Positions 14,862-35,163 of a stretch of DNA of 64,000 nucleotides are shown in pieces. Source of the DNA: Candidatus Falkowbacteria bacterium (GTDB taxonomy: Bacteria; Patescibacteriota; Patescibacteriia; Patescibacteriales; UBA12075); contig JAZDLN010000051.1 in NCBI GenBank assembly GCA_043801965.1, positions 19,720 through 83,719 on the forward strand. The letters run 5' to 3'. Every line of letters starts with the position of its first letter. The first letter of the stretch is position 1. The position numbers and the translations under genes are program-made. Below the pieces are notes generated by a model. The model was not told the origin of the DNA, did no database searches, and saw only the letters and a list, made by a program, of their open reading frames with translations.

Positions 14862-14884
14862 TAATACTAAATACTAATTTTCTA
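14862..14884. repeat. Short copy of the TACTAAATAC element at the stop of the sortase gene.
   Basis: ttaatactaaatactaattttcta overlapping stop TAG (14874-14876). Confidence 0.45.
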
Positions 14885-15539
14885 AAAGCTCCGCGATCAC
14901 GACCAGCCTCTGCGCGGTCGAGTAGATCGGCGTGCAGGTGAACATGGTCAGGGTCGGTTTTTCGGTCGGATTCATAATAGAAAGATCCGTGGGTTCCACT
15001 ACTTTTATTTCTTTGATACGGTAAAAATAATCCTTTTCTTTATATATCACGGAAACAATATCCCCGATAACCAATTTATCAAACAGGAAAAAGGTCAGAT
15101 TGTTGGGCGGCAGATATTTAAAACGATGCCCGGTAATGACGGTGTTGCCCCCTTTATCCGGGGTCGAACTTTCCGGCACGCGCCAGGAGCCGCGGGACAA
15201 GCCGTAATCGGCGGATTTAGCTTCCACGATCGGCGCGTTTACGCCGATCTTGGTGATTATTATCCGGTTCGGGGATACCGCGTACTCGGCTTCGGGTAGC
15301 TTGCTCACGATCTTGGCTGTTTTCTCTTTGACGATAACCTCGTCCTGATGGACGGCCGCCGCCTCCGTGCTCGTACCCGTAACTCCGGCCAGAGACGCCT
15401 CCCTTCTTTGCGTCATCCTGTATTTTACGGAAGGATAGAGCGGCAGGGCGAATATATAAACTATCACGAGGATAGCCAAAAATTCCATTGTTAAAACAAC
15501 CGCCTTTAAGACTTTTCCTTTTATCGCTTTTTTCTCCAT
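14874..15539 (-). CDS. Sortase family transpeptidase.
   Basis: N-terminal TM anchor, catalytic His (VITGHRF) and TLTMFTCTP (TLxTC Cys motif). Immediately downstream of a giant surface protein gene. Confidence 0.8.
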   Translation of the reverse strand: MEKKAIKGKVLKAVVLTMEFLAILVIVYIFALPLYPSVKYRMTQRREASLAGVTGTSTEAAAVHQDEVIVKEKTAKIVSKLPEAEYAVSPNRIIITKIGVNAPIVEAKSADYGLSRGSWRVPESSTPDKGGNTVITGHRFKYLPPNNLTFFLFDKLVIGDIVSVIYKEKDYFYRIKEIKVVEPTDLSIMNPTEKPTLTMFTCTPIYSTAQRLVVIAELLEN

Positions 15540-15557
15540 TTATATTGATCTAAATTA

Positions 15558-18500
15558 TTAATTTTTACCCGCGAAGCTCTTTCTTAACCGGAGAGGCCTG
15601 GTCTTTTTCAGGTTTACAACTTCGGGTATTTCTTCGTTATTGAGCGAGCGTTCCTTGATGGTCAGGATGATCGTTAAAATTACGAAAATCACGGAAAGCG
15701 CGATCAGAAGTTTCATGGCCAACCGGGCCGGAGCCAGATCGATCTTATTGCCGATCCGCCCGGAATTATCCAAAAAAGCAAAATCGTTTTCGCCGGGATA
15801 AAAGGTCTGGTCTAATTCCGTGGCGGTCTCGCCCGCGTATCCGGCGGCTAAAGCCTTTTCTGGTTGGCCGACGATATCGTCCAAAAAGCCTAAGCGGGAA
15901 ATAGCCGGGGCGACCGCGACCGGTTGCGGAACGGCAACTTCCTCACTGCTAAGACCTGCCACTGCCACGGTCTTGATCTCAAGACTGGACCGATCCCGGG
16001 CGGTTTCTGCGGTCCCGGAATTATCGGACTTAACTTCAAATTCGATCAAATATAGTCCCGGTTCGGCGGTCTTATCCGCCTCTACAGTAAAAAATACTTT
16101 CCTGAATTGTCCCGGAACCATATCTCCCAGGTTCCAATTGTTTATTATACCACCCCCATCTAAAAATGTCAATCCATCACCCAAACTTCCGCTCAGAATA
16201 ACGCCTTTAGCCGTTTTTACGCCGTTATTGGTAATAACCGCCTTGTAAGTAACCGTATCTCCGGGATTTGCGTAGTCCGCGCCGCCGGAAAGTCCGATCT
16301 CGAGCAAGGGCCTAAACCCAAACCAGTCCGGGTTCTCCACCTTGATCTTGGTCGAAGCGACCACAGCCACAAAATCATCCTTGGCCGCGTCGTATCCTTC
16401 GACGGTCACTTCGTTTGCGTAAACCCCGCTCCGGATATTGGACGTAATCTCGAGCGAGTAGCCGATACTGACCTCTTCGCGGTCGAGAACCGCGCCGAGC
16501 TCCCAAAGCTCCCGGTTAACCTCGACTTTCCCCTCTTCACCCGATAGAATATCCAGTACCAGTACGTCCTCCATGGGCGTACCGCCTGGATTCCTGATCG
16601 TGATCGTATAATTGACGACGTCGCCCGGACGGACAACATCGGCCGCGTCATTGGTTTTAACGACGACGAGAGCGGGAGATGTATTACCCATCCTGTTATC
16701 GGCGTCGGTTCGGGATGATAAAGAATTGCCCGCGCCGCCGGCGGCGGCCGCATTCCCGCCATCAACGACGACGGTCCCGCCGGCGGAATTATCACCCGGA
16801 TCGCGATCGTTTCCGAAGGATGAAATCGCGACGGTATTATCCGCGTTATGATGCCCCGCCGAAATATCGTCCCTGACCCTGACGGCATAACTTAAACTGC
16901 CCTGCGTATTGGGCGGGAGATCAGAGAGCGGCCAAGCGACAATACCGGCGCCCGCCTCGCTCCAGACGTAATTTTCGTCATAATCGTCGGACAGGGTCAC
17001 TCCGGTCGCCAGACCGTCGCCTTTGTTGCCGAACAGGAAGGTGTAATTTATATAATCCCCCCGCCTGACCGGCCCGGCCGCGTCGTTCGCTTCCGTTACC
17101 CAAAGATCAGGCAGACCGAAAGCCAGGTTGCCCTGCCAATCGCCGAAAACGTTTACCATGGAAAATTCCCAGCTATTGCCCGTAAAATTAGCGTTAATGA
17201 AATTTAAAAGGCTGTTTTGGATATTGATATCGCCGGTCGCGATACTGCCGCCGTCACTATGTAGAATCGAGTTATTGCCGGTCGAGGCGTTTATCTCAAT
17301 ATTATTGGTGGTCGAGGCCAGATTAGTATTACCGACGATCATTTGCGCGTAAGCGGAGTAAAATTCCGGATCGGATAGGATATCGTTATAGATCGTGATC
17401 CCGTATTCGTCCTCTAAGTAATCGTAACCGGCGGGAAGTCCGGTTATAAAGCCGTCCCAATTCCCGAAGATATTTACCCGCGCGAATTTCCAGGCATTGC
17501 CGGTTACGCTGTAGTTTATCAGGTTAAAAACATGCGACTCTACGACGGCCTCTCCGGTAGTGATCTCGCCTCCTCCCTCGGTCGTATTGTCGCCGGTCGA
17601 GGCGTTAATATCTATATTATTAAGAAGATCGGCCGCGTCCGTGTTGGCTAAAATAATACCGGCGGATTCGGCTTCAAGTTCCGGCGTCTGGGCGATAACC
17701 TCTGTCGTCGTCGCTGCTTCATCGGCACTGGTACTGGCGGCGTTACCGGGGCCGGGCAGGATAATATCGCCTTTAAGCTCGCCGAAAATATTAACGACCG
17801 CGAAAAACCAATCATTCCCGGCTACGTTCAGGTTGGCGATATTCACGAGGTCGTTCACGATCTCGATATCGCCGGTTTCGATCCGGCCCTCTCCGGTCGA
17901 GGTGGCGATTATATTATCGCCGGTATTGGCGTCGATAACGATATTATTATCCGTCGAAGCCGAATTATCGTTATTTATCGTCACGTAGCAATCGATAACA
18001 TCGCAGGCGCCGCTTTCTTCGACCGCTGTTTCCTCCCCGTTAAAGCCGGACAGGTCGATCGCGCCCATGACATGGTTGAAAATATTTATAAAATACTCCT
18101 TGCCGGGTCCGAAAAAATTATTATTGATGTAATTCAGGATGATATTGATAATGCCGACGTCGCCGGTCGTGATCAAAGCATCCCCGGACGATGACGCGAT
18201 AGTATTTCCGCCGCTATCACCGTTAAGCAGGACGTCGTTAGTGGTCGTGGCCGCGTTTAAGTTGTCTACCGATGTCGTGCCGCTGGCCGTATCCGGACAT
18301 TCCGCGCCGCAATCGGCTTCCAGGCCGTTCGAGTTAACGATATTTTCGGCAATAGCCTCGATAATCGCTTCGCCCGTCGCTATTGTTGAAGTGCCGGTAT
18401 TATCTTCCGTTCCGTTAATACCGGTCGTATCGGTCGCGTCGTCGACCGCTTCCGCTCCGTCGAGTTCGATAATCTCTATGTTGCCGTTGTTATCCGTCTG

Positions 18501-18746
18501 ATTTCCGTTGTCAGGATCGGCCGGGTCGTCAGCGGCCGCCGCGCTATCCTGCGCATCCGATAAACCGCCGTCGATAATATTTTGATTGATGCTCGACTCC
18601 GTCTCCGTCACTTCGGCATCGCCGGTCGCTATCTCTTCGGCCAAGACCATAATAACATTGTATGAATATAACGCCGAAAAGAACATTACTATAAATACAA
18701 TAATATTTTCTTTTATTTTTAAATTTTCATGGTATTGTCTGGACAT
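15558..18746 (-). CDS. Giant secreted, membrane-anchored repeat protein (1062 aa). It has four tandem roughly 85 aa repeats plus DUF11-like domains, and no canonical LPXTG.
   Basis: Signal peptide. Repeats contain TGDxxIxNxL.NxIN and NIFGxWxG. DUF11-type segments include VRPGDVVNYTITIRNPGG and ANPGDTVTYKAVITNNG. The C-terminus has DLAPAR followed by a TM helix and a positively charged tail. Confidence 0.65.
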   Translation of the reverse strand: MSRQYHENLKIKENIIVFIVMFFSALYSYNVIMVLAEEIATGDAEVTETESSINQNIIDGGLSDAQDSAAAADDPADPDNGNQTDNNGNIEIIELDGAEAVDDATDTTGINGTEDNTGTSTIATGEAIIEAIAENIVNSNGLEADCGAECPDTASGTTSVDNLNAATTTNDVLLNGDSGGNTIASSSGDALITTGDVGIINIILNYINNNFFGPGKEYFINIFNHVMGAIDLSGFNGEETAVEESGACDVIDCYVTINNDNSASTDNNIVIDANTGDNIIATSTGEGRIETGDIEIVNDLVNIANLNVAGNDWFFAVVNIFGELKGDIILPGPGNAASTSADEAATTTEVIAQTPELEAESAGIILANTDAADLLNNIDINASTGDNTTEGGGEITTGEAVVESHVFNLINYSVTGNAWKFARVNIFGNWDGFITGLPAGYDYLEDEYGITIYNDILSDPEFYSAYAQMIVGNTNLASTTNNIEINASTGNNSILHSDGGSIATGDINIQNSLLNFINANFTGNSWEFSMVNVFGDWQGNLAFGLPDLWVTEANDAAGPVRRGDYINYTFLFGNKGDGLATGVTLSDDYDENYVWSEAGAGIVAWPLSDLPPNTQGSLSYAVRVRDDISAGHHNADNTVAISSFGNDRDPGDNSAGGTVVVDGGNAAAAGGAGNSLSSRTDADNRMGNTSPALVVVKTNDAADVVRPGDVVNYTITIRNPGGTPMEDVLVLDILSGEEGKVEVNRELWELGAVLDREEVSIGYSLEITSNIRSGVYANEVTVEGYDAAKDDFVAVVASTKIKVENPDWFGFRPLLEIGLSGGADYANPGDTVTYKAVITNNGVKTAKGVILSGSLGDGLTFLDGGGIINNWNLGDMVPGQFRKVFFTVEADKTAEPGLYLIEFEVKSDNSGTAETARDRSSLEIKTVAVAGLSSEEVAVPQPVAVAPAISRLGFLDDIVGQPEKALAAGYAGETATELDQTFYPGENDFAFLDNSGRIGNKIDLAPARLAMKLLIALSVIFVILTIILTIKERSLNNEEIPEVVNLKKTRPLRLRKSFAGKN

Positions 18747-18828
18747 ATTTTAGTAGGTTAAAAGTAAGGCGAGAAGTAATAATTGATATTGGCATAAAAA
18801 CAAAACGCTCTCTTCAATCAAATAACCA

Positions 18829-19047: not shown

Positions 19048-19698
19048 CTATCCCCAGAACCCCAGTATCTTTAAAATTCCCGCCTTGATAGCGCCGATGA
19101 AACCGGACCAGACAGCCGCGATTCCCCGGTTATCATCCGATCGATCGTCTTCCGCGGCGTTGCCGGCATCATCCGCGCAATCGCTTTCTTCGAGTGCGCA
19201 CAGCCCGTTCCCGGCCGGTTCTTCCGGCTCTTCCCAAAGCTCGCCCAAGACCGGCTCAGCAATACCCCTCCCCGTCCCTCCCCTAATTAGGGGAGGGTGC
19301 TGGAGCGAAGCGGAGGCGGGAGGGGTGTCTGAAATTTCCGCCTCCGCTTTATCGCTATCGGCGTTAACCCGGTTCTCTATTTTTAATTGAACGCTGTCTT
19401 CCGTTTCTTTCTCTATCTTTACATCAGTCACCTTTGTTCCGTTTATTTCGGTCTCTATCTCGATCTCTCCGCGCGTTTTCCCCTCGACAACGGCGCCGTT
19501 TTTCGCCGTATTGCCGCCGCTTGAGGCGGATGATTTTATATTATTGGTTATCTTTGCGCCCCCGGAATCGTCATAATAATAAACCTCGTCATATTCGGCC
19601 AGCAAATCATCGAGGTTAAAGGCCCGCGTCCCGGCCGGCAGAAACAGCATCGACGCTATGATAATATAATTAATTTTTTTAAAATATTTTACGGACAT
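19048..19698 (-). CDS. Secreted acidic hypothetical protein containing an in-frame palindromic-element insertion.
   Basis: Signal peptide. Internal DTPPASASLQHPPLIRGGTGRGIAEP segment encoded by the element at 19264-19327. Confidence 0.5.
   Translation of the reverse strand: MSVKYFKKINYIIIASMLFLPAGTRAFNLDDLLAEYDEVYYYDDSGGAKITNNIKSSASSGGNTAKNGAVVEGKTRGEIEIETEINGTKVTDVKIEKETEDSVQLKIENRVNADSDKAEAEISDTPPASASLQHPPLIRGGTGRGIAEPVLGELWEEPEEPAGNGLCALEESDCADDAGNAAEDDRSDDNRGIAAVWSGFIGAIKAGILKILGFWG
19264..19327. repeat. In-frame nested-palindromic element copy.
   Basis: tacccctccccgtccctcccctaattaggggagggtgctggagcgaagcggaggcgggaggggtg. Confidence 0.75.
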
Positions 19699-20013: not shown

Positions 20014-21162
20014 TTAGAATCTTATCCGATTGATAATGTGGTTCACCCTATTGACAATGCGCGTATCGCTGTTTGACGGACCAGTGGTAATAATGCCGCC
20101 CCAGCCCGCAGCGCCGCCGGCTCCGCCGGCTCCGCCGATATTATCGTCTTCCGAACCGGTTATCGATCCGCCGTTGCCGGCATCGGTTCCATCGCCGCCA
20201 TCGGCTATGTTATCGCCGGTCAGGGCGCTGGTATTGGCAGTATTGACGAGAGTGGCTGTGTCCAGGTTATTGATCACTATATTTTCCGTGCTGGAGGCCA
20301 AATCATTTTCGCAATCGCAGGGAGCTATTCTTGTCCTGTCGACATTAACTCTGTTTATGATCCTGGAAGCGGCAGTCGCGGCTCCGGTCGTGATATTGCC
20401 GCCGTCTCCGCCCGCGCCGCCCGCGCCGCCCGCGCCGCCGGTATTAGCGTCATCGGACTCGGTTACATTACCGCCGTGTCCGGCCGCGCCGCCCGCGCCG
20501 CCGTTAGCGGTATTATTACCGGTAGTAGCGAGGGTAGTAACAGTATTGGTGATAACGGCGGTTTTGGTATTCGTTACTTCTATGGACAGATCCCTTACTC
20601 CACCATTATCATCTTCATCATCCCCGTCTTCGTCCGGGCAGACCTCATCATACTCGATCGAAACCGCGTCCACGTCGTAAGCGTCCGCTGTGTCTCCGTG
20701 CAGGTCCGGATCGGTCGTATCGACCAGCCTGACGTACTGGACGCACTGGTCCACGTTAAAAGTGGTTACGCCGTCGCCTTCGCCTTCGTCATTATTGGCC
20801 TCGCCGATAAAATTAAAATTAATTCCGTCATCGCTCACGTACACATCGGCTGTTTCCAGGGGAAATGCTCCGCCGGTAATCTCGTAAGTCGCCAAGGTAA
20901 GTACGCCGGATGCTTTGACCGGGAATTCGAGGGTCAGGTCGCCGCCGAAACCTAAAGAAACGAAATCGCCGTCGTTCGGACCTAAGGCGTCAGTCGGATC
21001 GCTCCTTGAAGCGCTAACCGGATCGCCATTCTTCTGATCGCCCTGGTTGAATTCATCGACGCTGTCCGCGAAATCAAGAACAGCCGCGTCCGCGTAGAAC
21101 GTGGACATGAACGGCGATAAAGCCAACATAAGCCCTAAAACAAAAATAAATGTTTTCTTCAT
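20014..21162 (-). CDS. Secreted Gly/Asp-rich repeat protein.
   Basis: Signal peptide MKKTFIFVLGLMLALSPFMSTFYADA. Two internal copies of a GGAGGAGGAGG-containing module. No sorting signal. Confidence 0.5.
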   Translation of the reverse strand: MKKTFIFVLGLMLALSPFMSTFYADAAVLDFADSVDEFNQGDQKNGDPVSASRSDPTDALGPNDGDFVSLGFGGDLTLEFPVKASGVLTLATYEITGGAFPLETADVYVSDDGINFNFIGEANNDEGEGDGVTTFNVDQCVQYVRLVDTTDPDLHGDTADAYDVDAVSIEYDEVCPDEDGDDEDDNGGVRDLSIEVTNTKTAVITNTVTTLATTGNNTANGGAGGAAGHGGNVTESDDANTGGAGGAGGAGGDGGNITTGAATAASRIINRVNVDRTRIAPCDCENDLASSTENIVINNLDTATLVNTANTSALTGDNIADGGDGTDAGNGGSITGSEDDNIGGAGGAGGAAGWGGIITTGPSNSDTRIVNRVNHIINRIRF

Positions 21163-21324: not shown

Positions 21325-23931
21325 TTAAACAGCCTGCGTTTTGCGCCCTAAATATAAACCTATGGTCCCGAGCGATATCATGATCGCGGAGAGCGCGATT
21401 AACTCGTCAAAACCGAACCCGGTTTCCGGTAAAGTCGTACGCACCTCCAGATCAGCCGTGGTCCTTACCGGTTCATGGTTATCCGCCCGCGCTTCCGCCC
21501 GATTGACGTAAACGCCCGTGGCCGCGCTTCGGTCGATATTTGCCGAAATGATGATTTCCCGGCTCGCTCCGGGAGCCAGATCGCCGAGCATGAACGTTTT
21601 AGAGCTCGTGCCGTTATCGACAAAAGAAAGTCCGGAGGGCAGGGTATCGGTCATGACCGCGTTAAAAGCCGTTAAATTCCCCGTGTTCCTGACCGTAACC
21701 GTGAATTTAATATTCTTGTCCCCGGGTCTGGCGAAAACACGGTCGATCTTCTTGGTTATGGAAAGTATCGGTTCACCCTCTTCCCCCCTGACGCAAGTAT
21801 CACTCGATAAAGTATTTACGGAAATTTCCGGCCCGAAGATAATACTCGAATTATTGACGGATACCGGTCGGACGTAATAAGTTTTCCCGATATCAAGACC
21901 GATGATCGATTCTTCGTGGCCGGTAACTTCTTCGCTGTCCTGCGTGGTCGAAAACGCGTAACCGAAATTAGGAGCCGTGCTCGTGCCGATATCAGAGTGG
22001 GAAACCGTATCGTAAATAAGGCGTGAAGCGGCCGGTTTTGACGTTAACCAGGAAAATATCAGGAAGTCACAGCCGGAATTTACATTTTGAAAATTCTTTA
22101 TTTCGAATATTGGTATCCCGCCGCCGCCATTGCCGCCTCCGTTGCCGCCGCCTCCGCCATTGCTCGCGGGCTGTTTATAATTTACGAAATCAACGGTTTT
22201 GTCTTCGCTTTTATGTTCCTTTTTATCTGTTTTTATGTTGACGATCGCCATGCCGTCAGCGGGATCGACGTAACTCCAGCCGGAAGGAAGAGTCTCGGTA
22301 ATAGTGTAATCGCCTTCCGGCAGTCCGCCGAAAACGGTACAACCGTTTACCGTTGATTGGGTGGTCGTGGCCACAGTCCCGCCCGAGAGCGTGAACTGCC
22401 AGACGGCCGTGGTTGTGGCGCGATCGCCGGTCGTCGAAGCCGAGCCGTCCGCGTCTTCGTATTTGCATACCTTGATCGACCCCTCCGGTTCCCGGAAGTT
22501 TACGAACTTTACGGTTTTGTCTTCGCATTCTTCAAGGTTCACGGTTATCTTGCCATCGGCCGGATCGACGAAACTCCAGCCGAAAAGAAGAGTTTCGGTA
22601 ATAGTATAATTTCCGGCCGGAAGCTCATCGAAGGTGGCACAGCCGTCAATGGTCGATATTGCGGTCGTGGCCGTGCCGTCATGGATAATATATTCCCAGA
22701 TACTGTCGGATAATATCCGGTCGTCAGTGGTCGAGGCCAGTCCGTCTTTATCTTCGTATTTGCATACTTTGATCGAGCCGGTTTTATCGCCGCCGCCTCC
22801 GCCGCCGTTGCCTCCGCCGCCTCCGCCGCCATTACCCTCCTCTTTATAATTAACGAAATTGACGGTTTTATTTTCGCCTTTTAAGAGTTTCGCGGCCATA
22901 ATTCCGTTAGCGGGTTCGACGTAACTCCAGCCGGAAAGAAGAGTTTCGGTAATAGTATAATCCCCGGCAGTAAGCCCATCGAAAGTGGCGCAGCCATCCA
23001 CGGTAGATCTTACGGTCGTGGCCGTATCGCCGTTAAGGGTATATTCCCAGACGTTATCGGCAAGCGTCCGGTCGTCCGTAGTCGAGGCCGAGCCGTCCGC
23101 GTCTTTGTATTTGCAGACTTTGATCGAACCTTTCGGCGCCGGAGGAACAGGTTCTTCCTTGTGATTCACGAAAGCGATGAACTTATTCTCCGCGTTACCG
23201 AGATTAACCGTCCGTATGCCGTTATCGGGAACAAGAAAAGACCAACCGGAGAGCAGGGTTTCCGTAACAGTATAATTGCCCGCTTCCAGTCCGGTAAAAG
23301 CGGTACAGCCGTTTTCGGTCGTCTGTATTTTATCCGCGCCTCCGGAAAGGGTGTATTCCCAGATCGAATCGGAAAGGACGCGGTCGTAAGTGGATAAAGC
23401 GATCCCGTCCGCGTCTTCATATTTGCAGACAGTGATAGATGAAGAGATCGTCTCGGCCTGACGATTACCGAAATGCAGACTGCTTATGTTCTGTCCGGCC
23501 TGCAGATTAACCACGTGTTTCGTGGGGTCGTCCTGGTTCGGGTAAACTATATTATTCGGAAAAGTCTCTGTCCAGCCGGGTTTCTGGGTTTCGGCCACGA
23601 TATAATTACCGGCCGCGAGGTTATCGAAAATATAGCAGCCGAAATCGTTGGTTACGGTCGTAGTGGAAACATCCCCGCTTAAAACGATCTCCCAGCCGGG
23701 GAGGATATCCGCGGTACTGGTGCCGGTTTCATCCCAGAAACCGTCGCCGTCAGCGTCATTCCATTTACAGCCGGAAATCGAGCCTAATGGCGGCTCCGCG
23801 GCTTTCGCTTCCTCCGGAACGGCAAAAAACACGCCTACGAAAGACATGTTGAAGATAAGTACGCTTAAAAGGAAAACATTGAAGAATCTCCGGATTCTTC
23901 TGGTTTTTTTACTGAGGCTTGGGATCTGCAT
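21325..23931 (-). CDS. Cell-wall-anchored (LPETG) pilin/adhesin-like protein with four Cna-B/prealbumin-like repeats, poly-Gly linkers and a C-terminal DUF11 domain.
   Basis: Repeats SIKVCKYEDADG ... GDYTITETLLSGWSY. The C-terminus ends LPETGFGFDELIALSAIMISLGTIGLYLGRKTQAV (motif, TM, basic tail). Confidence 0.75.
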   Translation of the reverse strand: MQIPSLSKKTRRIRRFFNVFLLSVLIFNMSFVGVFFAVPEEAKAAEPPLGSISGCKWNDADGDGFWDETGTSTADILPGWEIVLSGDVSTTTVTNDFGCYIFDNLAAGNYIVAETQKPGWTETFPNNIVYPNQDDPTKHVVNLQAGQNISSLHFGNRQAETISSSITVCKYEDADGIALSTYDRVLSDSIWEYTLSGGADKIQTTENGCTAFTGLEAGNYTVTETLLSGWSFLVPDNGIRTVNLGNAENKFIAFVNHKEEPVPPAPKGSIKVCKYKDADGSASTTDDRTLADNVWEYTLNGDTATTVRSTVDGCATFDGLTAGDYTITETLLSGWSYVEPANGIMAAKLLKGENKTVNFVNYKEEGNGGGGGGGNGGGGGGDKTGSIKVCKYEDKDGLASTTDDRILSDSIWEYIIHDGTATTAISTIDGCATFDELPAGNYTITETLLFGWSFVDPADGKITVNLEECEDKTVKFVNFREPEGSIKVCKYEDADGSASTTGDRATTTAVWQFTLSGGTVATTTQSTVNGCTVFGGLPEGDYTITETLPSGWSYVDPADGMAIVNIKTDKKEHKSEDKTVDFVNYKQPASNGGGGGNGGGNGGGGIPIFEIKNFQNVNSGCDFLIFSWLTSKPAASRLIYDTVSHSDIGTSTAPNFGYAFSTTQDSEEVTGHEESIIGLDIGKTYYVRPVSVNNSSIIFGPEISVNTLSSDTCVRGEEGEPILSITKKIDRVFARPGDKNIKFTVTVRNTGNLTAFNAVMTDTLPSGLSFVDNGTSSKTFMLGDLAPGASREIIISANIDRSAATGVYVNRAEARADNHEPVRTTADLEVRTTLPETGFGFDELIALSAIMISLGTIGLYLGRKTQAV

Positions 23932-29104: not shown

Positions 29105-29137
29105 GGGGGGTATTTAGGTGTTTGGTTTCCGCCCGCC

Positions 29138-29165
29138 GTAGAGACGCGATTAATCGCGTCTCTAC
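29138..29165. repeat. GTAGAGACG-armed perfect 28 bp palindrome with a different centre.
   Basis: gtagagacgcgattaatcgcgtctctac. Confidence 0.65.
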
Positions 29166-29207
29166 GCCGCGACATCTCCGAAAATAAAAAACCATGTTAG
29201 CTAGTCC

Positions 29208-29328: not shown

Positions 29329-32300
29329 TTAAGCTTTTACCACTCCGAATTTAAGGACCTTGGCTATCCCAAATAAACCGAGAACGGACAGGACAAGGAT
29401 TAAAAGTTCGCTCTCGTCAAAACCGGTTTCAGCCAGGACTTTAACGTTCTCGACCGTCAGATCGGCCGTTGCGCTCGCGTCAGCGGCGCTATTATCGGCT
29501 TTAACCGTGGCGGTATTGGCGTAAACCTTGGCCGCGGCGGTTTTATCGATATTTACGGTATAGCTTACTTCTTTCTTTCCGCCTTGGGCGATATCGCCTA
29601 ATTCCCAGGTGCGGGTCAGGCCTTCCGCGTCAGAAAACATGAGGCCAGCTTCCATAGTATCGGATAATACCACGTTTTTTGCGTCAACGTTATCCGTATT
29701 AGTAACGGTTATGGTATATTTTACGCCGGTATCGCCCGGATTGGCTTTAACCCGGTCAACGGTCTTTGTAAGCGAGAGGGTTACGCTCTCTTCGCCCAAA
29801 ACGGACACTGAGATCGGTTCCGGGTTCTCTACGGGCGCTGATCCGGCTTCTCCGGTCTTGTATTCTACCTGCTTGCCGTAGATTTCCGGCGAAGCCGAAG
29901 ACATAGGCCGGAAATAATAGGTCGTGTTCGGGGTAAGACCGGTTATGGTTACCGAGTGGCCGGTTACGTGCTCTTCGTCAAGTTCGGTTGACCACTGGTA
30001 GCCGTAATTCGGGGCCGATTCGCCGGAAACGTCGGGGTGGCTCACCGTATCGTAGATAACGCGCGAAGTGCCGGCTTTGTTGGTCAGCCAAGTGATAGTA
30101 ATAAAATCGCCGCTTAAATTTCCGGCCCGTTCGTTATAGATGGTAAGCTCAGAGGGCAACCAGCCGCTTCCGCCCTGATTATATTCACAGCTCTGGTCGT
30201 CGTTAGTAGCGCCGGAATTATAGTTAGTAGCCGAAGAGTCCATACAGCCGTAAACCGGTTCAAAATGATTCAGGAGATACACTTCTCGGAAATTCGGATA
30301 TTGTTCCCCATCACCGATGGTCACTTCATGCGCTTTCTGAGGATATGTTTGCGTCCAACCGGCCTGTGCATCTTCGGTAATGGTATAGGTGCCGTAAGGT
30401 ACGGTAAAGTCAACACAACCGTGATTCCGGCTGTCATCGCCCTCGGTCGCACCGCTGTCGTTATGTCCGTTGTCGCCGGCAATATTCATGGTCCAACCGC
30501 CGAGAGGGTGTAGTATTCTCTGCGCGGTCGCAAGAACCGGTTTGACTATAAGATCCCGTAATTTCGCCAATACAGAATCGGCCTGCGTGTATTCCGGATA
30601 ATCCGGCTCGCCGTTATTATCGGTATCCTCGTATTTGCAGACCCGGATCGTGCCGGTCGGTTCGTCTCCTTCGTCTTCTTTATTGCCGAAATAATAAGTA
30701 ATATCGCCGTTAACAGTCACGTCTTCACAAACGACCATCAAGGGCACCTCCCCGCCGTTGGTCCAGTCAAAGGGCGTATTTCCCGGGTCGGTATTGGTCC
30801 ATCCGTCCTGCGTATATTCGCAGACCGTATATTCGCCGTAAGGCAGATTACTGAAAGTGAATTTGCCTTCGGAATCGGTAATGGTTTCCGGACCCTCATA
30901 CTGGTAATGATCGCCGCTGATAAATACTTTCCAACCCGGAATATAGGGTTCTTCCCCGTGTTCGCCGTTTTCATCTACATCGTTATATTTATAAATCGTG
31001 ATGGAACCGGTCGGGTCTTCCGGGGTGGTATAGTGATTCAGGAAGTAAACGATTGGGGCGGAATTATCTCCGTCCACCGTCACTGTCGCCGAACCATCCT
31101 CTTCTAAAACCGCATTACCGTCAACTCCGGTCTGTTCCCAATTATCTATATCCTCTTCCTCGGAAATATTATAAGTCCCGTAATCAACTTCGTTAATAGT
31201 GACACAACCGGTTTCGCCCGCCTGATAAGTCGTATCGTTCATGTAAAAATGCCAAAGCGGGTCGGTGACAGCCGGTTCATTCTCGTTCAATGCCCCGTTG
31301 CCGTCCAGATCGCTGTATTTGCAGATCGTGATAGAGCCAATCGGTTCGGCTGGGCATTCGGTTAATTCTACTTTAACATCATCAAGCAAGGTTCCGTAAG
31401 AATCCGGCGTTCCCAGATCTGTAAATGCAAGATCAGCGGAATCGCTGTCGGCGGTCATGGTATATTCATATAAAGTCCAGGCGGTATCGGTATTACCGGA
31501 ACCGTCGGCGCTGACCGTTTCGTCAATCGTTCCGAACTTAACACCCAGGCTGTTGTTACTCGAATCAGTATCCGGCCGTGGCGAGAATTTAAAAGTAAGT
31601 TTATAGACCGCTCCGGGAACAGTGGTAACGCTTTGAGAAATAACCACTGAGGCCGCTTCATTGCCCTCAACTGGATAATCTGTATCAAGCTCGGCCCATT
31701 GACTGCCTTCGCCCGCGGTCCATTCCAGAGAGACGGTTTGTAGTTCTAAATTAGCCGGTTCCGGCGCGCCTTCTTCGGGCGCGACCCAGGAAACGTCCCA
31801 GCCTAAACCGTCGGTACCGGACGGATAAATCTGCCACTTGCCGTCATGCTCGTTAACGGTCGGATTTTCAAAGCCGCCGTTCATTATCTTAACAAAACCG
31901 GTTTCGCAGGCCGGTTCGTCCGCTACGCAAGCGCAGCTAACGCAGGTTTCTCCGGTACCGCAAGCGGAACCGTCGCAATCCTCGCCCTCTTCAATGATTT
32001 GATTGCCGCAGACCGGATCGCTAGCGTCGCAAACGTCGCCCTTGCCGTCTTTGTCAGCATCCGCCTGGTTGGCATTTGATGTTAGTGGACAATTATCGCA
32101 AACGTTGCCGATGCCATCGCCATCCGAATCAGCCTGGTTGGCATTGGAGCTATTCGGGCAATTATCGCAGGCATCGCCCACGCCGTCCTGATCGCTGTCT
32201 TCCTGGCCGGAGTTGGCGGCCCATGGGCAGTTATCGCAGTCATCCGGAACGCCGTCGGCATCCATATCCTGCGCATCGTCTGTGCCAGGACACATATCGC

Positions 32301-33417
32301 AGGCATTGCCGGCGCCGTCCTTATCGGCATCCGCCTGATCCGGATTAGCCGTGCTAGGGCAATTATCCTCGTTATCGCAGAAACCGTCGTCATCACTATC
32401 CGTACAAGAGCAAGTTAAATCTGATCCATCGCAATCCTGATCTATGCTGTCGCCGCAAATTTCAGAGGCGGCAGGATTAATATTGCTGTTATCATCATTG
32501 CAGTCAATACCGCTGGTGGTTTCCGCGTATCCTTTCGGAATGCTGCTGCCATAGCAGATAGAAATCTTCCCGTCCGAACCGGCCGTATCGGCATCGTAAT
32601 AATAACCGTCGTTATCGCCGTCATACCAATAGCTATCCACTTGCCATGAATCAGGGTTAGAGTCGTTGCAGTCAACTGGCCCGCATTGTCCGCCCTCTAC
32701 CGAATAACCATCTTGGTCGTTATCGGTGCACGCCAATGCAATACTTACCCCATCAACGCGAAAGTATTCAGAGCTAGGATTATCGTCATTTGTATCATCG
32801 TCGCATTTGTTATCCCAATTAGTAAACGAACAACCTGAGTTATTTTTATACCGAAGTGTAAATTTCTGATTATCAACATATTCCGATGGAAGATTAACTG
32901 CTTGTAACGCGCTCCAACCCTCATCATTGTTATTGTTATTATCATCTAGTTCGTGCGAAGCTACTTCGTGCCAACCATCACCAGCGGTACAGGAATCCCC
33001 CTGGTGCACATAAACTTTTCCGTATTCGTTGTTTTCAGCATCAGCATCACCACGCCAATAGTACTTTAAAACTAAACCGGAATAACCCCTTGCGTCAATT
33101 TTTGCGCAAATCCATTCATTATCACCAATTTTTGCGAAACGTCCGCCATCTGGGCTAGCGCCATCTGGTTCACTGCCCGGCTTTTTGGCAACCGTATATC
33201 CGTTTGATTCATCCCAATTATCAATATTATTATCATCGTTTCCCGCTCCGAATCCATCTGACCACGGCAACCCAGCCGCCTCTACTCCGGTCCCAACAAA
33301 AAACACGCCCATAAGTGACATGTTGAAGATTAATACTGATAAGCTAAAGACGCTTAAAAGTTTATAGCCGCTCTTCCTGAGGCGCTCCAGGCGATAATGC
33401 CCGATGTTTTTGTGCAT
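29329..33417 (-). CDS. Giant cell-wall-anchored (LAETG) adhesin with thrombospondin type-3 Ca-binding repeats, three prealbumin-like repeats, an FN3-like domain and a DUF11 domain.
   Basis: DSDQDGVGDACDNCP / DADKDGKGDVCD TSP3-type repeats. Repeats GSITICKY ... GTYNISEEE ... W. The C-terminus ends LAETGFDESELLILVLSVLGLFGIAKVLKFGVVKA. Confidence 0.75.
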   Translation of the reverse strand: MHKNIGHYRLERLRKSGYKLLSVFSLSVLIFNMSLMGVFFVGTGVEAAGLPWSDGFGAGNDDNNIDNWDESNGYTVAKKPGSEPDGASPDGGRFAKIGDNEWICAKIDARGYSGLVLKYYWRGDADAENNEYGKVYVHQGDSCTAGDGWHEVASHELDDNNNNNDEGWSALQAVNLPSEYVDNQKFTLRYKNNSGCSFTNWDNKCDDDTNDDNPSSEYFRVDGVSIALACTDNDQDGYSVEGGQCGPVDCNDSNPDSWQVDSYWYDGDNDGYYYDADTAGSDGKISICYGSSIPKGYAETTSGIDCNDDNSNINPAASEICGDSIDQDCDGSDLTCSCTDSDDDGFCDNEDNCPSTANPDQADADKDGAGNACDMCPGTDDAQDMDADGVPDDCDNCPWAANSGQEDSDQDGVGDACDNCPNSSNANQADSDGDGIGNVCDNCPLTSNANQADADKDGKGDVCDASDPVCGNQIIEEGEDCDGSACGTGETCVSCACVADEPACETGFVKIMNGGFENPTVNEHDGKWQIYPSGTDGLGWDVSWVAPEEGAPEPANLELQTVSLEWTAGEGSQWAELDTDYPVEGNEAASVVISQSVTTVPGAVYKLTFKFSPRPDTDSSNNSLGVKFGTIDETVSADGSGNTDTAWTLYEYTMTADSDSADLAFTDLGTPDSYGTLLDDVKVELTECPAEPIGSITICKYSDLDGNGALNENEPAVTDPLWHFYMNDTTYQAGETGCVTINEVDYGTYNISEEEDIDNWEQTGVDGNAVLEEDGSATVTVDGDNSAPIVYFLNHYTTPEDPTGSITIYKYNDVDENGEHGEEPYIPGWKVFISGDHYQYEGPETITDSEGKFTFSNLPYGEYTVCEYTQDGWTNTDPGNTPFDWTNGGEVPLMVVCEDVTVNGDITYYFGNKEDEGDEPTGTIRVCKYEDTDNNGEPDYPEYTQADSVLAKLRDLIVKPVLATAQRILHPLGGWTMNIAGDNGHNDSGATEGDDSRNHGCVDFTVPYGTYTITEDAQAGWTQTYPQKAHEVTIGDGEQYPNFREVYLLNHFEPVYGCMDSSATNYNSGATNDDQSCEYNQGGSGWLPSELTIYNERAGNLSGDFITITWLTNKAGTSRVIYDTVSHPDVSGESAPNYGYQWSTELDEEHVTGHSVTITGLTPNTTYYFRPMSSASPEIYGKQVEYKTGEAGSAPVENPEPISVSVLGEESVTLSLTKTVDRVKANPGDTGVKYTITVTNTDNVDAKNVVLSDTMEAGLMFSDAEGLTRTWELGDIAQGGKKEVSYTVNIDKTAAAKVYANTATVKADNSAADASATADLTVENVKVLAETGFDESELLILVLSVLGLFGIAKVLKFGVVKA

Positions 33418-33576
33418 ATTTTTCTACATCCCGTCCCGAAATTCATAAAAATATGAACTATGGACGAAAATTATTTATAAATATTTAACGAATAAATAAA
33501 AAATAGCCCCCTTTATTTCAACCAAGGCTTAACCCTATTATTGCATATTTTTAAAAATCAAGCAATATTTTCCAAC

Positions 33577-35163
33577 CTAATTCGCGGCTCTTTTCCGAAG
33601 TATCGCCGCCGAACCCGCCAGGACGAGCATTACGCCCAATAGTACGATAAATTCAACATTATCAAAGCCGGTTTCGGGCAGTTTAACTGGCGCTGGCGCT
33701 TCGCCGCCCATGGGCGCTCCAATCGCGCTTCCTTTGACTTCGATAGCCAGGGTAGCCATGACCGGATTATGATTAGAAGCGTAGGCCACGGCCGTATTAG
33801 CGTAAATTCCAGGTAAGGCCACCGCGCCCACGTCCACCAGGTATTTTATAATCTTGACCTCTCCGGGTAAAATATCGCCCAGGCTCCAGGTCCGGACCGG
33901 CTCGCCCGTATCGGCGTGCACAAGGCCGCCGTAAAGAGTATCGGCTAAAGTAACGGCATAAGCGGTTAAATTGCCTTGGTTGGCGACCGTAATCGTATAT
34001 TCGATACTGCCGCCGCCGATATTGGCCGTAGCCCGGTCCGCGGTTTTTTCTATGACCAGTTCCGGATTCCCGGCTTCTCCTAAAACCATGGTTTCTTCCG
34101 TAGCAACCGGCAGAGTTTCCGGGATCTTTACCGGGGCGACCGGATTAATTTCTCCGACGACAATATCGGCCGTAGCCGTGACCGGAGAATGATTCACGGC
34201 AAAGGCCTGGGCCACGTTAGTATAGATCCCGGGCGTGGCCGAAGTCGCGATATCGACAAGATAGGTAATATTTTTGATCGTTCCCGGCTCAATGTCACCC
34301 AGAAACCATTCCTTCGACGTGTCTTCCGTGCCGTCGAAAACGAGCCCCGCGGGCAGATTATCAACCACGTTCACGCCGTAAGCGGCTAAATTACCGTTAT
34401 TCGCGACCACGATCTTAAATATTTTCTCGCTGATCAGATCCGAGTTGTTGGCGTTCTGGTTTAAAATTACCTTCCCGATCGATAAATTAGGCGCGCCCGT
34501 CTCGCCCAAAACCACGGTCTCGGTGTCGCCGCCTAAAGGCGCTAACGCCGGCGTCGATGTGCCCGGTTCAAGACTGCAGGAAATCGTACAATGGTACCCC
34601 GCCTGCACGCCAAGGTCGCCGTCACAGGCCTCGAAATACTCCGTAATGCCGTTGCCGCAATAAAAAGACCCTTCGTCGAATATTCCTTCATAGTTAGCGA
34701 AATCAACTTCTACCGCTTCTCCCGCTCTAAGGCCGATATTATAATCCACGCCCTTAGGCATGGTCTGCGTCCAACCCTCTTTTTTTATCTCTTTTAGGCG
34801 ATATTTTCCCTCTGATAAGCCGGAAAAGGAGAAACAGCCGTTATTATCCGTAGTCGTGGCCGCGTAAACCGAACAAATATCATTGATGTTGAACGCGAAC
34901 TCCCCTGTTTCGCTGATATTGCCGCAATTCTCTAAAACGATCTCCCAGCCAGGCAATTTTTCCCAGGTTTTTTCGGCTTTGCCGGTCCCGCTTATATCGC
35001 GATAATTACAGCCGGCAACAGAGCTTAAGACCGGGAGGGAACTCGTGGCTTCGGTACTGGTCGCTTCGGCGGATACGGGTTTAACGCCCAGAAAAAAAAC
35101 GCCGGAGGTTAGAAGAAATAAAATTATCAGGCTGAATCTAATACTGTTGGCCGTTTTAAACAT
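33577..35163 (-). CDS. Cell-wall-anchored (LPETG) protein with three DUF11 domains.
   Basis: Signal peptide. DUF11 repeats (NGNLAAYGVNVVDNLPAGLVF ...). The C-terminus ends KLPETGFDNVEFIVLLGVMLVLAGSAAILRKRAAN. Confidence 0.75.
   Translation of the reverse strand: MFKTANSIRFSLIILFLLTSGVFFLGVKPVSAEATSTEATSSLPVLSSVAGCNYRDISGTGKAEKTWEKLPGWEIVLENCGNISETGEFAFNINDICSVYAATTTDNNGCFSFSGLSEGKYRLKEIKKEGWTQTMPKGVDYNIGLRAGEAVEVDFANYEGIFDEGSFYCGNGITEYFEACDGDLGVQAGYHCTISCSLEPGTSTPALAPLGGDTETVVLGETGAPNLSIGKVILNQNANNSDLISEKIFKIVVANNGNLAAYGVNVVDNLPAGLVFDGTEDTSKEWFLGDIEPGTIKNITYLVDIATSATPGIYTNVAQAFAVNHSPVTATADIVVGEINPVAPVKIPETLPVATEETMVLGEAGNPELVIEKTADRATANIGGGSIEYTITVANQGNLTAYAVTLADTLYGGLVHADTGEPVRTWSLGDILPGEVKIIKYLVDVGAVALPGIYANTAVAYASNHNPVMATLAIEVKGSAIGAPMGGEAPAPVKLPETGFDNVEFIVLLGVMLVLAGSAAILRKRAAN

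What the first reader, a model, noticed from the sequence alone, without database searches (positions are those of the whole stretch)
14874..35163. Roughly 20 kb sortase plus giant-adhesin locus: five very large surface proteins, four with LPETG/LAETG sorting signals, combining DUF11, Cna-B-like, Myxococcus Cys-rich and TSP3 modules
- The sortase (TLTMFTCTP) is co-oriented with, and directly downstream of, a 1062 aa repeat protein.
- That protein has only a non-canonical pre-TM motif (DLAPAR) before its C-terminal TM helix and basic tail.
- Four further genes (21325-23931, 24920-28522, 29329-33417, 33577-35163) end in a canonical motif-TM-basic-tail sorting signal.
- Their anchor motifs alternate: LPETG, LAETG, LAETG, LPETG.
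- Module content is unusual for this kind of genome: about 12 Myxococcus-type CGDG..EQCDDGN..GDGC repeats, and thrombospondin type-3 calcium-binding repeats.
- Such multi-adhesin loci are plausible host/partner-attachment machinery in episymbiotic small-genome bacteria.
- Whether one sortase handles both the LPETG and LAETG substrates, and whether DLAPAR is a third variant, is open.
Basis: partly seen in the sequence, partly recalled or inferred. Interest (0 to 1): 0.65.

Follow-up and report, generated by a model that had tools for sequence, protein, structure and literature searches.

The report
Sortase and wall-anchored adhesin gene cluster
This is a real but fairly ordinary sortase gene cluster in an uncultured Falkowbacteria (Candidate Phyla Radiation, CPR) genome: one membrane-bound sortase enzyme sits beside four large surface proteins that carry its LPETG/LAETG anchoring signal, and a conserved three-gene surface module of unknown fold lies among them.

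Summary
On the minus strand lie a 221-aa sortase with an intact His138/Cys202/Arg211 triad and four secreted proteins of 868, 1200, 1362 and 528 aa. These end in LPETG, LAETG, LAETG and LPETG, each followed by a hydrophobic helix and a basic tail. They are the only such signals, and this the only sortase, in the 64-kb window.

The source is a Candidatus Falkowbacteria genome assembled from a metagenome. The sortase belongs to a large Patescibacteria clade that scores far below every curated class C, D, E and F cut-off. Across 49 related loci its neighbouring substrates mostly carry LAxTG, and less often LPxTG. One enzyme serving both motifs is therefore the simplest reading.

The 1062-aa protein is not a substrate here. 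Its orthologues end either in a true LAxTG signal or in a plain membrane anchor, and this one has the plain anchor. With two overlooked secreted paralogues (382 and 216 aa) it forms a conserved Patescibacteria-specific module whose repeat domain has no known fold.

The DUF11 (CLIPPER) and CnaB-like stalk domains mostly keep isopeptide triads. The Cys-rich and TSP3 modules are common in related loci, not unusual.

Verdict: a new member of a known kind, of modest interest.

The parts
14874..15539 (-). Sortase, 221 aa. It has an N-terminal membrane helix (residues ~12-35) and catalytic residues His138 (15126-15128), Cys202 (14934-14936) and Arg211 (14907-14909).
   Evidence: It matches Pfam PF04203 at 2e-23 and TIGR01076 at 64 bits against a cut-off of 39. 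The triad is invariant in alignment A1 and aligns with PDB sortases and with SaSrtA.
15558..18746 (-). 1062-aa membrane-anchored surface protein (p1062). It has a signal/anchor helix, four ~100-aa beta-hairpin repeats (17112-18284), three DUF11/CLIPPER domains (16029-17108), a linker, the DLAPAR stretch (15723-15740), a C-terminal helix (15657-15710) and a basic tail.
   Evidence: It is an exact match to NCBI 'hypothetical protein V1867_08215 [Candidatus Falkowbacteria bacterium]'.
19048..19698 (-). 216-aa secreted protein (p216). It has one half-copy of the p1062 repeat motif and a conserved amphipathic C-terminus. It also carries an in-frame palindromic repeat element at ~19250-19320.
   Evidence: Homologues sit in the same position in L001, L003, L004, L005, L047 and L049.
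20014..21162 (-). 382-aa secreted protein (p382). It has an N-terminal CBM32/discoidin-like domain (20638-21081) and two Gly-rich copies of the p1062-type repeat (20017-20580), and it ends ...NRIRF.
   Evidence: Foldseek against the PDB gives 2j7m (CBM32) at E 4.5e-5 and 57 hits at E<=1e-3. Local similarity to the p1062 repeats is shown. The family alignment is A4.
21325..23931 (-). 868-aa sortase substrate. It comprises a signal peptide with the IFNMSFVGVFF motif, five CnaB/SpaA-like repeats, an Fn3-like domain, a DUF11/CLIPPER domain and an LPETG sorting signal (21328-21432).
24259..24651 (-). 130-aa protein with no signal peptide and no family match. It is conserved in the same position in L001 at 86% identity. 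Its membership of the system is uncertain.
   Evidence: A strong terminator follows it at 24198-24177.
24920..28522 (-). 1200-aa sortase substrate. It comprises a SpaA_4 domain, a DUF11 domain, 9+3 Cys-rich CGDG..E.CD repeats (26330-27361 and 25703-26017) split by a CnaB-like domain, an Fn3-like domain, a second DUF11 domain and an LAETG sorting signal (24923-25027). It contains 67 Cys.
29329..33417 (-). 1362-aa sortase substrate. It comprises TSP3 calcium-binding repeats (32020-32415), a DUF642/choice-of-anchor-C domain (31369-31887), three CnaB/SpaA-like repeats, an Fn3-like domain, a DUF11 domain and an LAETG sorting signal (29332-29436).
   Evidence: A 15-bp-stem terminator lies at 29313-29281.
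33577..35163 (-). 528-aa sortase substrate. It comprises one CnaB-like domain whose Lys position is occupied by Asn, one Cys-rich unit, two DUF11/CLIPPER domains and an LPETG sorting signal (33580-33681).
   Evidence: It matches TIGR01167 LPXTG_anchor at 17.5 bits against a cut-off of 15.9.

Best explanation
**What it is.** This is a housekeeping-type sortase display system of a Candidatus Falkowbacteria (Patescibacteria/CPR) bacterium.

**How it most likely works**
1. Four secreted multidomain proteins are exported by Sec through N-terminal signal peptides. Two of them carry, and a third carries a variant of, a clade-specific ...NMSxxGVFF motif.
2. Each protein is held in the membrane by its C-terminal helix and basic tail.
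3. The single membrane-anchored sortase (Cys202 nucleophile, His138, Arg211) cleaves between Thr and Gly of L(P/A)ETG.
4. The acyl-enzyme is resolved onto a peptidoglycan precursor amine. This leaves the protein covalently attached to the wall.

**Layout of each substrate**
- The wall-proximal stalk is a DUF11/CLIPPER domain, usually preceded by an Fn3-like domain, together with CnaB-like repeats. Most of these domains retain Lys/Asp-or-Glu/Asn isopeptide triads.
- The variable distal heads are Cys-rich repeats, TSP3 calcium-binding repeats and a DUF642 sandwich. These presumably bind partner cells or surfaces.

**The second module.** The 1062-aa protein, with the 382-aa and 216-aa secreted paralogues, is a separate conserved surface module. 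In this lineage it is held by a plain membrane helix rather than by the sortase.

**Shown:** gene content, the catalytic triad, the sorting-signal architecture, the domain maps, the linkage of this sortase clade with LAxTG/LPxTG substrates, and the presence of peptidoglycan genes.

**Inferred:** cleavage, the wall nucleophile, isopeptide bond formation and the adhesive role.
For: - **Sortase identity.** It passes the Pfam and TIGR01076 cut-offs. The triad is invariant in 25 homologues and aligns with PDB sortases and SaSrtA H120/C184/R197.
- **Substrates.** Only four ORFs in the window have L[PA]ETG + helix + basic tail. All lie within about 20 kb upstream of the only sortase, on the same strand.
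- **Linkage across genomes.** In roughly half of 46 genome loci holding this sortase clade, the gene immediately upstream ends in L[AP]xTG-F...E + helix + basic tail. LAETG is the commonest form. Over all related loci, 31 signal-bearing proteins carry LA-x-T/S-G (22), LP-x-TG (7) or LTPTG/LVATG (2).
- **Precedent for dual specificity.** S. coelicolor SrtE1 cleaves both LAETG and LPETG in vitro (PMC5148588).
- **Peptidoglycan genes.** The same window holds murF (294 bits against a cut-off of 288.6), a class B PBP, mraZ and rsmH.
- **Stalk domains.** The K/D(E)/N triad is present in 7 of 9 DUF11 domains. The Lys and Asp align with those of the solved CLIPPER domain 9IFR (PMC12617251). The K/E/N triad is present in 10 of 11 CnaB-like repeats, and the YTITET Glu aligns with the YTLVET Glu of a solved pilin.
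- **Conservation.** The locus is syntenic in Falkowbacteria RIFOXYA2_FULL_47_19 (sortase 92%, p868 88%, p1062 75% identity).
- **Signal peptide.** The motif occurs in 9 of 35 signal-bearing ORFs against 1 of 438 others.
Against: - No biochemical data exist for any Patescibacteria sortase.
- The wall nucleophile and the peptidoglycan chemistry of this organism are unknown.
- The sortase scores 58-65 bits against the class C/D/E models, whose cut-offs are 140-165. Specificity therefore cannot be transferred from a characterised class.
- The residue aligned with the class E alanine-sensing Tyr is Val121. How Ala at P3 would be accepted is unexplained.
- Only 64 kb of the genome was seen, so a second sortase elsewhere could serve one of the two motifs.
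- The adhesin role rests on domain analogy only.
Confidence: 0.78

Rival explanations
1. The sortase is a pilus-polymerising enzyme like class C sortases. It would join the SpaA-domain proteins, especially the 868-aa protein, head to tail into covalent pili.
For: The class C model is among the best-scoring NCBIfam class models (63.5 bits), and several of the top PDB hits are class C sortases. The substrates contain SpaA-type domains, and p868 gives a weak hit to a SpaH/EbpB major-pilin model.
Against: The score is far below the class C cut-off of 160. The enzyme ends directly after the last catalytic strand, so it has no C-terminal membrane helix, and no DP[WFY] lid motif is visible by eye. 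No YPK[N/D]-type pilin motif occurs in any substrate. There is only one sortase in the window, whereas pilus loci normally pair a class C enzyme with a housekeeping one.
Confidence: 0.06
2. The 1062-aa protein is also a sortase substrate through a non-canonical L-A-P-A-R signal, which would be a third motif variant.
For: Its gene is 18 nt upstream of the sortase. I-[DN]-L-x-P-A-R just before the helix is shared with P0123, a homologue only about 46% identical overall. Orthologues in other lineages do carry LAATG/LASTG/LSPTG signals at their C-terminus, directly before the helix and immediately after the third DUF11.
Against: The scissile Thr-Gly pair is replaced by Ala-Arg. The motif lies about 90 residues beyond the last DUF11, whereas true signals follow it directly. 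Other plain-helix variants (P0126, P0127, P0130, P0137) share no motif. The basic tail, at more than 30 residues, is much longer than in the four true signals. Orthologues that carry true signals are not adjacent to a sortase, so adjacency does not imply a substrate relationship.
Confidence: 0.05
3. The sortase works mainly as a releasing or processing protease, or it attaches the proteins to a non-peptidoglycan acceptor such as a lipid, an S-layer or a secondary polymer, rather than to the wall.
For: The CPR envelope is poorly understood (PMC5220378). The locus lies next to glycosyltransferases, a Bac_transf priming transferase and a large polytopic TPR protein. The clade lies outside the characterised classes.
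Against: Peptidoglycan synthesis genes are present in the window. The triad and the sorting-signal architecture are canonical. Every characterised sortase transfers to an amine on the wall or on a pilin (established knowledge).
Confidence: 0.1

Closest known systems
Streptomyces coelicolor class E sortases SrtE1/SrtE2 with LAXTG substrates (chaplins)
   Same: It is a housekeeping-type membrane sortase whose substrates carry Ala at P3 (LAETG). SrtE1 also cleaves LPETG in vitro (PMC5148588), which matches the mixed LAETG/LPETG set here.
   Different: The class E model scores 57.6 bits against a cut-off of 160. The position of the class E Tyr (SaSrtA A104) is Val121, and V/I/L/M in the homologues examined. 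There is no long cytoplasmic N-terminal segment. The host is a Patescibacterium, not an actinobacterium.
Staphylococcus aureus SrtA with LPXTG-anchored MSCRAMM adhesins
   Same: It has the His-Cys-Arg triad, an N-terminal membrane anchor and tripartite sorting signals. The substrates are built from Ig-like and CnaB stalk repeats with distal binding heads.
   Different: No class A model hit was reported. Per PMC5148588, SaSrtA did not cleave the LAETG peptide, yet Ala is the commoner P3 residue in this clade. The substrates use a different conserved signal-peptide motif (NMSxxGVFF) rather than YSIRK/GS; the YSIRK comparison rests on general knowledge.
Clostridium perfringens SrtD (PDB 4D70), the closest solved structure by sequence
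   Same: It is the best phmmer hit (E 4e-10). The catalytic core aligns across His and Cys.
   Different: Class D models score 61-65 bits against cut-offs of 140-165. CpSrtD prefers LPQTGS and does not process LAETG (PMC5148588).
Fibrillar adhesins with CLIPPER (DUF11) isopeptide stalk domains (Costa et al. 2025, PMC12617251; PDB 9IFR)
   Same: The DUF11/DUF7507 domains lie next to the sorting signal and retain the Lys/Asp/Asn positions. They co-occur with SpaA-type domains and disulfides, as that survey describes.
   Different: Two of the three DUF11 domains of the 1062-aa protein have lost the triad. No bond has been demonstrated here.
Large Cys-rich exported proteins plus sortase noted in CPR genomes (Peregrinibacteria, PMC4736985; CPR protein-family survey, PMC6744442)
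   Same: This is the same kind of gene content: a sortase family found in more than half of CPR genomes, and exported proteins with Myxococcus-type Cys-rich repeats.
   Different: Those papers give no locus-level anatomy, motif statistics or description of the 382/216/1062-aa module.

Membership tests
Sortase superfamily (PF04203 / TIGR01076) | The profile HMM score is above the curated cut-off. | tested here: met
   PF04203 scores 82.9 bits against a cut-off of 26.6. TIGR01076 scores 64 bits against 39.35.
Sortase superfamily (PF04203 / TIGR01076) | The catalytic His-Cys-Arg triad is present. | tested here: met
   H138, C202 and R211 are invariant in 25 homologues (that alignment is numbered one lower). 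They align with SaSrtA H120/C184/R197 and with PDB sortases.
Sortase superfamily (PF04203 / TIGR01076) | The enzyme has transpeptidase activity on a sorting signal. | not testable with these tools
   This needs an enzyme assay.
Class E sortase | The NF033747 class model score is above its cut-off. | tested here: not met
   The window sortase scores 57.6 bits against a cut-off of 160. Five clade members score 57-71 bits.
Class E sortase | A conserved Tyr lies in the beta3/beta4 loop at the S3 subsite (SrtE1 Y229, equivalent to SaSrtA A104). | tested here: not met
   The aligned residue is Val121, and it is V/I/L/M in the homologues examined. Alignment in this loop is moderately reliable. An invariant Trp119 lies two residues earlier.
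Class E sortase | The substrates carry LAXTG. | tested here: met
   Two of the four substrates here, and 22 of 31 in related loci, have Ala at P3.
Class C (pilus) sortase | The class model is passed, a lid and a C-terminal helix are present, and the substrates carry a pilin motif. | tested here: not met
   It scores 63.5 bits against a cut-off of 160. The protein ends after the last catalytic strand. No YPK motif occurs in any substrate.
Class D sortase | The NF033746 / NF058671 model score is above its cut-off. | tested here: not met
   The scores are 60.8 against 165 and 65 against 140. A homologue that NCBI names 'class D sortase' (P0104) also scores only 65-69 bits.
Sortase substrate (cell-wall sorting signal) | The C-terminus is tripartite (LPXTG-like motif, ~20 hydrophobic residues, basic tail) and there is an N-terminal signal peptide. 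| tested here: met
   This holds for the 868-, 1200-, 1362- and 528-aa proteins. TIGR01167 passes its cut-off only for the 528-aa protein (17.5 bits against 15.9). It does not hold for the 1062-aa protein.
CLIPPER / DUF11 isopeptide domain (PF01345) | The HMM is matched and the Lys / Asp(Glu) / Asn triad is present. | tested here: met
   The HMM is above its cut-off in all five proteins. The triad is present in 7 of 9 domains. It is absent from p1062 domain a (no Lys) and domain c (none of the three). The Lys and Asp align with those of 9IFR.
CLIPPER / DUF11 isopeptide domain (PF01345) | The isopeptide bond actually forms. | not testable with these tools
   Model coordinates are not returned. 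It needs Isopeptor on the coordinates, or intact-mass spectrometry.
CnaB-type isopeptide domain (SpaA PF17802 / SdrD_B) | The HMM is matched, with Lys on the first strand, the catalytic Glu of the YxLxET motif and Asn on the last strand. | tested here: met
   SpaA scores 82 bits in p868. The CK[YW] / Y-x-[IV]-x-E / x-N-[YHKF] pattern is present in 10 of 11 repeats; p528 has Asn in place of Lys. The Glu aligns with that of the pilin 5YU5. Bond formation was not tested.
Curli / functional-amyloid beta-solenoid (for the p1062 N-terminal repeats) | There is fold or sequence similarity to CsgA or FapC. | tested here: not met
   The best Foldseek PDB hits are CsgA 8c50 at E 1.3 and FapC at E 5, which are not significant. 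There is no Pfam hit and no PDB hit with the family profile.

The most novel reading that the evidence does not exclude
The genes for the 382-, 216- and 1062-aa proteins encode a Patescibacteria-specific surface assembly.

- It is built from paralogous long-beta-hairpin repeats of a fold not yet solved.
- The membrane- or wall-anchored 1062-aa base protein would present a repeat platform. The secreted paralogues would dock or polymerise on it, one of them tipped with a CBM32-like lectin domain.
- Across lineages the base switches between sortase anchoring (LAxTG) and a plain membrane helix.
- Together with an out-of-class sortase clade that prefers LAxTG without the class E Tyr, and with a dedicated NMSxxGVFF signal peptide, this would amount to a CPR-specific surface-display pathway rather than a borrowed Gram-positive one.
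Probability: 0.25. Interest if true: 0.6.

Novelty: new member of a known kind. Interest (0 to 1): 0.35.

Why it matters
- **Why the topic matters.** CPR/Patescibacteria are thought to live attached to other cells, yet their envelope and attachment proteins are almost entirely uncharacterised.
- **What this locus offers.** It gives a concrete and testable set: one sortase, four predicted wall-anchored proteins with defined motifs, and a conserved unannotated surface module.
- **A possible tool.** A sortase that naturally accepts both LAETG and LPETG without the class E tyrosine could be a useful new tool enzyme. It would also test current ideas on how P3 specificity is set.
- **The limit.** As a genomic observation it is nevertheless an expected feature of these genomes.

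Tried and rejected
- **Source contig by the sortase.** An exact look-up of the sortase found nothing. The source was identified through the 1062-aa and 382-aa proteins instead.
- **Curli-like amyloid reading of the repeats.** This was rejected for lack of any significant match.
- **Structure of the 382-aa protein.** Only the N-terminal domain was confident. The Gly-rich repeats had pLDDT below 55.
- **Pilus reading.** This was rejected: there is no pilin motif, no lid and no second sortase.
- **Hypervariability.** It is not seen. Against the sister genome L001 the surface proteins are 66-92% identical, and the neighbouring housekeeping genes are 70-90% identical. Only part of the locus is covered there.
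- **Class assignment by phylogeny.** This was not possible without reference sequences. NCBIfam class models were used instead.
- **Promoter scan.** It was uninformative. The terminator scan gave three convincing minus-strand terminators.

Full report
**1. Observation**

- The 221-aa ORF at 14874-15539 matches the Pfam Sortase domain at E 2e-23 and passes the generic TIGR01076 cut-off.
- It starts 18 nt after the stop of the 1062-aa ORF (15558-18746).
- The ORFs of 868, 1200, 1362 and 528 aa end in LPETG, LAETG, LAETG and LPETG. Each motif is followed by F or W, an acidic residue, about 20 hydrophobic residues and a K/R tail.
- A pattern scan of all window ORFs of at least 80 aa found these four as the only such C-termini.
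- A profile built from sortase homologues hit only one of the 208 ORFs of at least 60 aa.
- The domain calls are all confirmed: DUF11, SpaA/SdrD_B, DUF4215/myxo_disulf_rpt and TSP_3.
- There are exactly 12 CGDG...E.CD units in the 1200-aa protein, arranged 9+3 around a CnaB-like domain.

**2. Source and conservation**

- The 1062-aa and 382-aa proteins are exact matches to NCBI 'hypothetical protein V1867_08215 / V1867_08225 [Candidatus Falkowbacteria bacterium]' on a 106-kb contig.
- A sister genome, Falkowbacteria RIFOXYA2_FULL_47_19 (L001), is syntenic over the part that could be fetched.
- Identities there are: sortase 92%, p868 88%, the C-terminal part of p1200 92.5%, p382 80%, p1062 75% and p216 66%.
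- The neighbouring CAP, NUDIX and MnmA genes are 90%, 78% and 70% identical.
- The surface genes are therefore not hypervariable at this distance.

**3. The sortase**

- His138, Cys202 and Arg211 are invariant in a 25-sequence alignment. They align with the catalytic residues of solved sortases and with SaSrtA H120/C184/R197. The SaSrtA sequence was recalled from memory and then checked by residue index.
- The enzyme has one N-terminal membrane helix. It ends right after the last catalytic strand. No lid motif is visible by eye.
- It belongs to a large family: 643 hits at E<=1e-5. The best 120 listed are 52-92% identical. The named ones are from Parcubacteria, Falkowbacteria and 'Patescibacteria group'.
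- Against the NCBIfam class models, the window sortase and five relatives score 57-87 bits for classes C, D and E, against cut-offs of 140-165. No class A hit was reported.
- The residue aligned with the class E alanine-sensing Tyr (SaSrtA A104, CpSrtD F92; PMC5148588) is Val121, and it is aliphatic in the homologues examined.
- By every test available here, this clade lies outside the curated classes.

**4. Which motif does it serve?**

- In 46 genome loci recovered with the sortase profile, the gene directly upstream of the sortase ends in a sorting signal in roughly half. LAETG is the commonest form (9 loci). LPETG, LAPTG, LAATG, LPPTG, LPNTG, LVATG and others also occur.
- Counting all signal-bearing ORFs in these loci gives 31 proteins: 22 with LA-x-T/S-G, 7 with LP-x-TG and 2 with LTPTG or LVATG. 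The motif is nearly always followed by F-x-x-x-E.
- This genetic linkage fits one enzyme clade accepting either Ala or Pro at P3. S. coelicolor SrtE1 cleaves both in vitro (PMC5148588).
- This is inference. No Patescibacteria sortase has been assayed, and no dedicated study turned up in the paper library.

**5. The substrates**

- The four share a C-terminal module: an Fn3-like domain (in three of the four), a DUF11 domain and the sorting signal.
- DUF11 was recently renamed CLIPPER. It was shown crystallographically to be a CnaA-like intramolecular isopeptide domain (PMC12617251; PDB 9IFR).
- In an alignment of the nine DUF11 domains of the locus, seven retain the Lys/Asp(Glu)/Asn positions. 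The Lys and the Asp of p868 align with the corresponding residues of 9IFR.
- The eleven CnaB/SpaA-like repeats carry C-K-[YW], Y-x-[IV]-x-E and x-N-[YHKF] in ten cases. The Glu aligns with the YTLVET Glu of a solved pilin. Most also carry a Cys pair.
- Bond formation itself could not be tested, because model coordinates are not returned.
- The N-terminal 'heads' differ:
  - p868 has five CnaB-like repeats.
  - p1200 has the Cys-rich repeats and 67 Cys in all.
  - p1362 has TSP3 repeats plus a DUF642/choice-of-anchor-C sandwich.
- p868 and p1362 share a conserved signal-peptide core, [IV][IFV]NMS[FYL]xG[VM]FF, and p1200 has a variant of it. Across all loci the motif occurs in 9 of 35 signal-bearing ORFs against 1 of 438 others (Fisher p = 2e-10).

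**6. Can the proteins be wall-anchored?**

- The same window carries mraZ, rsmH, a class B penicillin-binding protein and murF, which scores above its equivalog cut-off. Peptidoglycan synthesis is therefore encoded.
- The acceptor amine is unknown.

**7. The 1062-aa protein and its partners**

- The protein consists of a signal/anchor helix, four ~100-aa repeats, three DUF11 domains, a linker and a C-terminal helix with a long basic tail. Each repeat has the pattern N-x-x-x-x-A-x-T-G-x-N ... I-x-T-G-D ... N-x-x-N-x-N ... N-I-F-G.
- Its orthologues, about 930-1110 aa long, come in two forms:
  - In one form the third DUF11 is followed directly by LAATG, LASTG, LAASG, LTASG or LSPTG, then F..KEF, a helix and a basic tail. 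This is a true sorting signal.
  - In the other form, which includes the window protein, an 80-110 aa linker leads to a plain helix.
- 'IDLAPAR' lacks the Thr-Gly pair. It is shared only with its closest relatives, including 'INLLPAR' in a 46%-identical homologue. It may be a relic of LAPTG, but it is unlikely to be cleaved.
- Orthologues with true signals are not adjacent to a sortase. The adjacency seen here therefore does not indicate a substrate relationship.
- The repeat domain is widespread but unannotated. A search of the 1.84 billion cluster representatives found 1,630 at E<=1e-3 (1,158 at E<=1e-10). The ten clusters looked up carry no informative name; the only organism named is a Parcubacteria group bacterium.
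- There is no Pfam or NCBIfam match for the repeat region.
- An AF2 model (pLDDT 72.7, pTM 0.70) shows four modules of long beta-hairpins. It has no significant Foldseek match in the PDB; the best hits are curli CsgA at E 1.3 and FapC at E 5.
- The 382-aa and 216-aa proteins carry the same repeat motif. They precede p1062 homologues in at least ten loci, as a three- or four-gene cassette.
- The N-terminal domain of the 382-aa protein is CBM32/discoidin-like (Foldseek 2j7m at E 4.5e-5, with 57 hits at E<=1e-3).
- I read this as a separate, conserved surface module whose base protein is either sortase-anchored or membrane-anchored depending on lineage. How its parts assemble is unknown.

**8. 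Comparison with what is known, and novelty**

- A sortase family occurs in more than half of CPR genomes (PMC6744442).
- 'Sortase motifs' on multiple surface proteins have been noted (PMC5220378).
- Cys-rich Myxococcus-like exported proteins beside a sortase A have been noted (PMC4736985).
- The kind of system is therefore known, and the module content is typical for the clade. The same modules recur in L006, L017, L025, L028, L030 and L048.
- What this analysis adds:
  - the LA/LP motif statistics for the clade;
  - its position outside classes A-F, without the class E Tyr;
  - the dedicated signal-peptide motif;
  - the anchor switching and the unannotated fold of the 382/216/1062-aa module.
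- I rate the finding a new member of a known kind, with interest 0.35.

**9. Transcription units**

Three strong minus-strand terminators lie at 29313-29281, 28711-28689 and 24198-24177. They suggest separate units: p528-p1362, then p1200-p130, then p868 through to the sortase. The last unit contains 160-315 nt gaps that may hold further promoters.

Noticed in passing
window ~10910-10975 and ~11290-11355 (both inside mnmA, 10744-12099), ~19250-19320 (inside the 216-aa ORF), ~53365-53435 (inside the dus ORF, 53016-54071): A ~65-nt GC-rich palindromic element lies in frame inside four positions of three protein-coding genes. Its sequence is ACCCCTCCCGCCTCCGCTCCGCTYCRGCACCCTCCCCTAATTAGGGGAGGGACGGGGAGGGGTGT, and it encodes ...TPPASAPLQHPPLIRGGTGRG.... 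Three copies share an identical 36-mer, where 0 are expected by chance. One mnmA copy is cleanly absent from the sister genome L001; the other site holds a decayed look-alike there. The RNA folds at -42 kcal/mol (z = -2.0). An exact 26-mer was found in only 2 JGI metagenome contigs. It resembles the Rickettsia palindromic elements that insert in frame into genes (that comparison is from memory)..
   Followed up: partly
window 29071-29110 and 29134-29169 (in the 806-nt gap between the 1200-aa and 1362-aa genes): Two adjacent near-perfect palindromes share the arm CGTAGAGACG...GTAGAGACGAGGCATGCCTCGTCTCTAC... and ...GTAGAGACGCGATTAATCGCGTCTCTAC.... They translate on both strands as 'VETRLIASLRR'-type pseudo-ORFs. 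This is a second repeat family, of unknown role..
   Followed up: partly
window 23824-23856, 33298-33330, 28349-28381; also L001, L024, L026, L030, L031, L037, L048: Sortase substrates share a conserved signal-peptide core, [IV][IFV]NMS[FYL]xG[VM]FF. It occurs in 9 of 35 signal-bearing ORFs against 1 of 438 other ORFs. Three substrates also begin M-x-x-YSP[ND][FL]. This is reminiscent of the YSIRK/GS signal peptides of Gram-positive LPXTG proteins..
   Followed up: partly
window 49088-51208 (-): This is another 706-aa DUF11/DUF7619 surface-type protein without a sorting signal, next to tgt. A similar gene sits next to tgt in L049..
   Followed up: no
window 35454-42395 (-): Directly upstream of the adhesin genes lie an 814-aa polytopic membrane protein with C-terminal TPR repeats, two GT4 glycosyltransferases and a Bac_transf priming transferase. 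The same block precedes the surface-protein cassette in L048. This suggests a linked envelope-glycan locus..
   Followed up: no
window 10744-14782 (-): The order sortase - NUDIX - CAP-domain membrane protein - mnmA is conserved in several Parcubacteria/Falkowbacteria loci (L001, L007, L017, L037, L047)..
   Followed up: no
window 42462-42876 (-): A bacterial RNase P RNA of class A scores 206.7 bits. It is the only Rfam hit in the window..
   Followed up: no
window 58411-63986 (-): This is the start of a division and cell-wall gene cluster: mraZ, rsmH, a class B PBP and murF. It shows that peptidoglycan synthesis is encoded..
   Followed up: partly
window 24259-24651 (-): A 130-aa protein with no signal peptide and no family match sits between two adhesin genes. 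It is conserved at 86% identity in the same place in L001. Its function is unknown..
   Followed up: no
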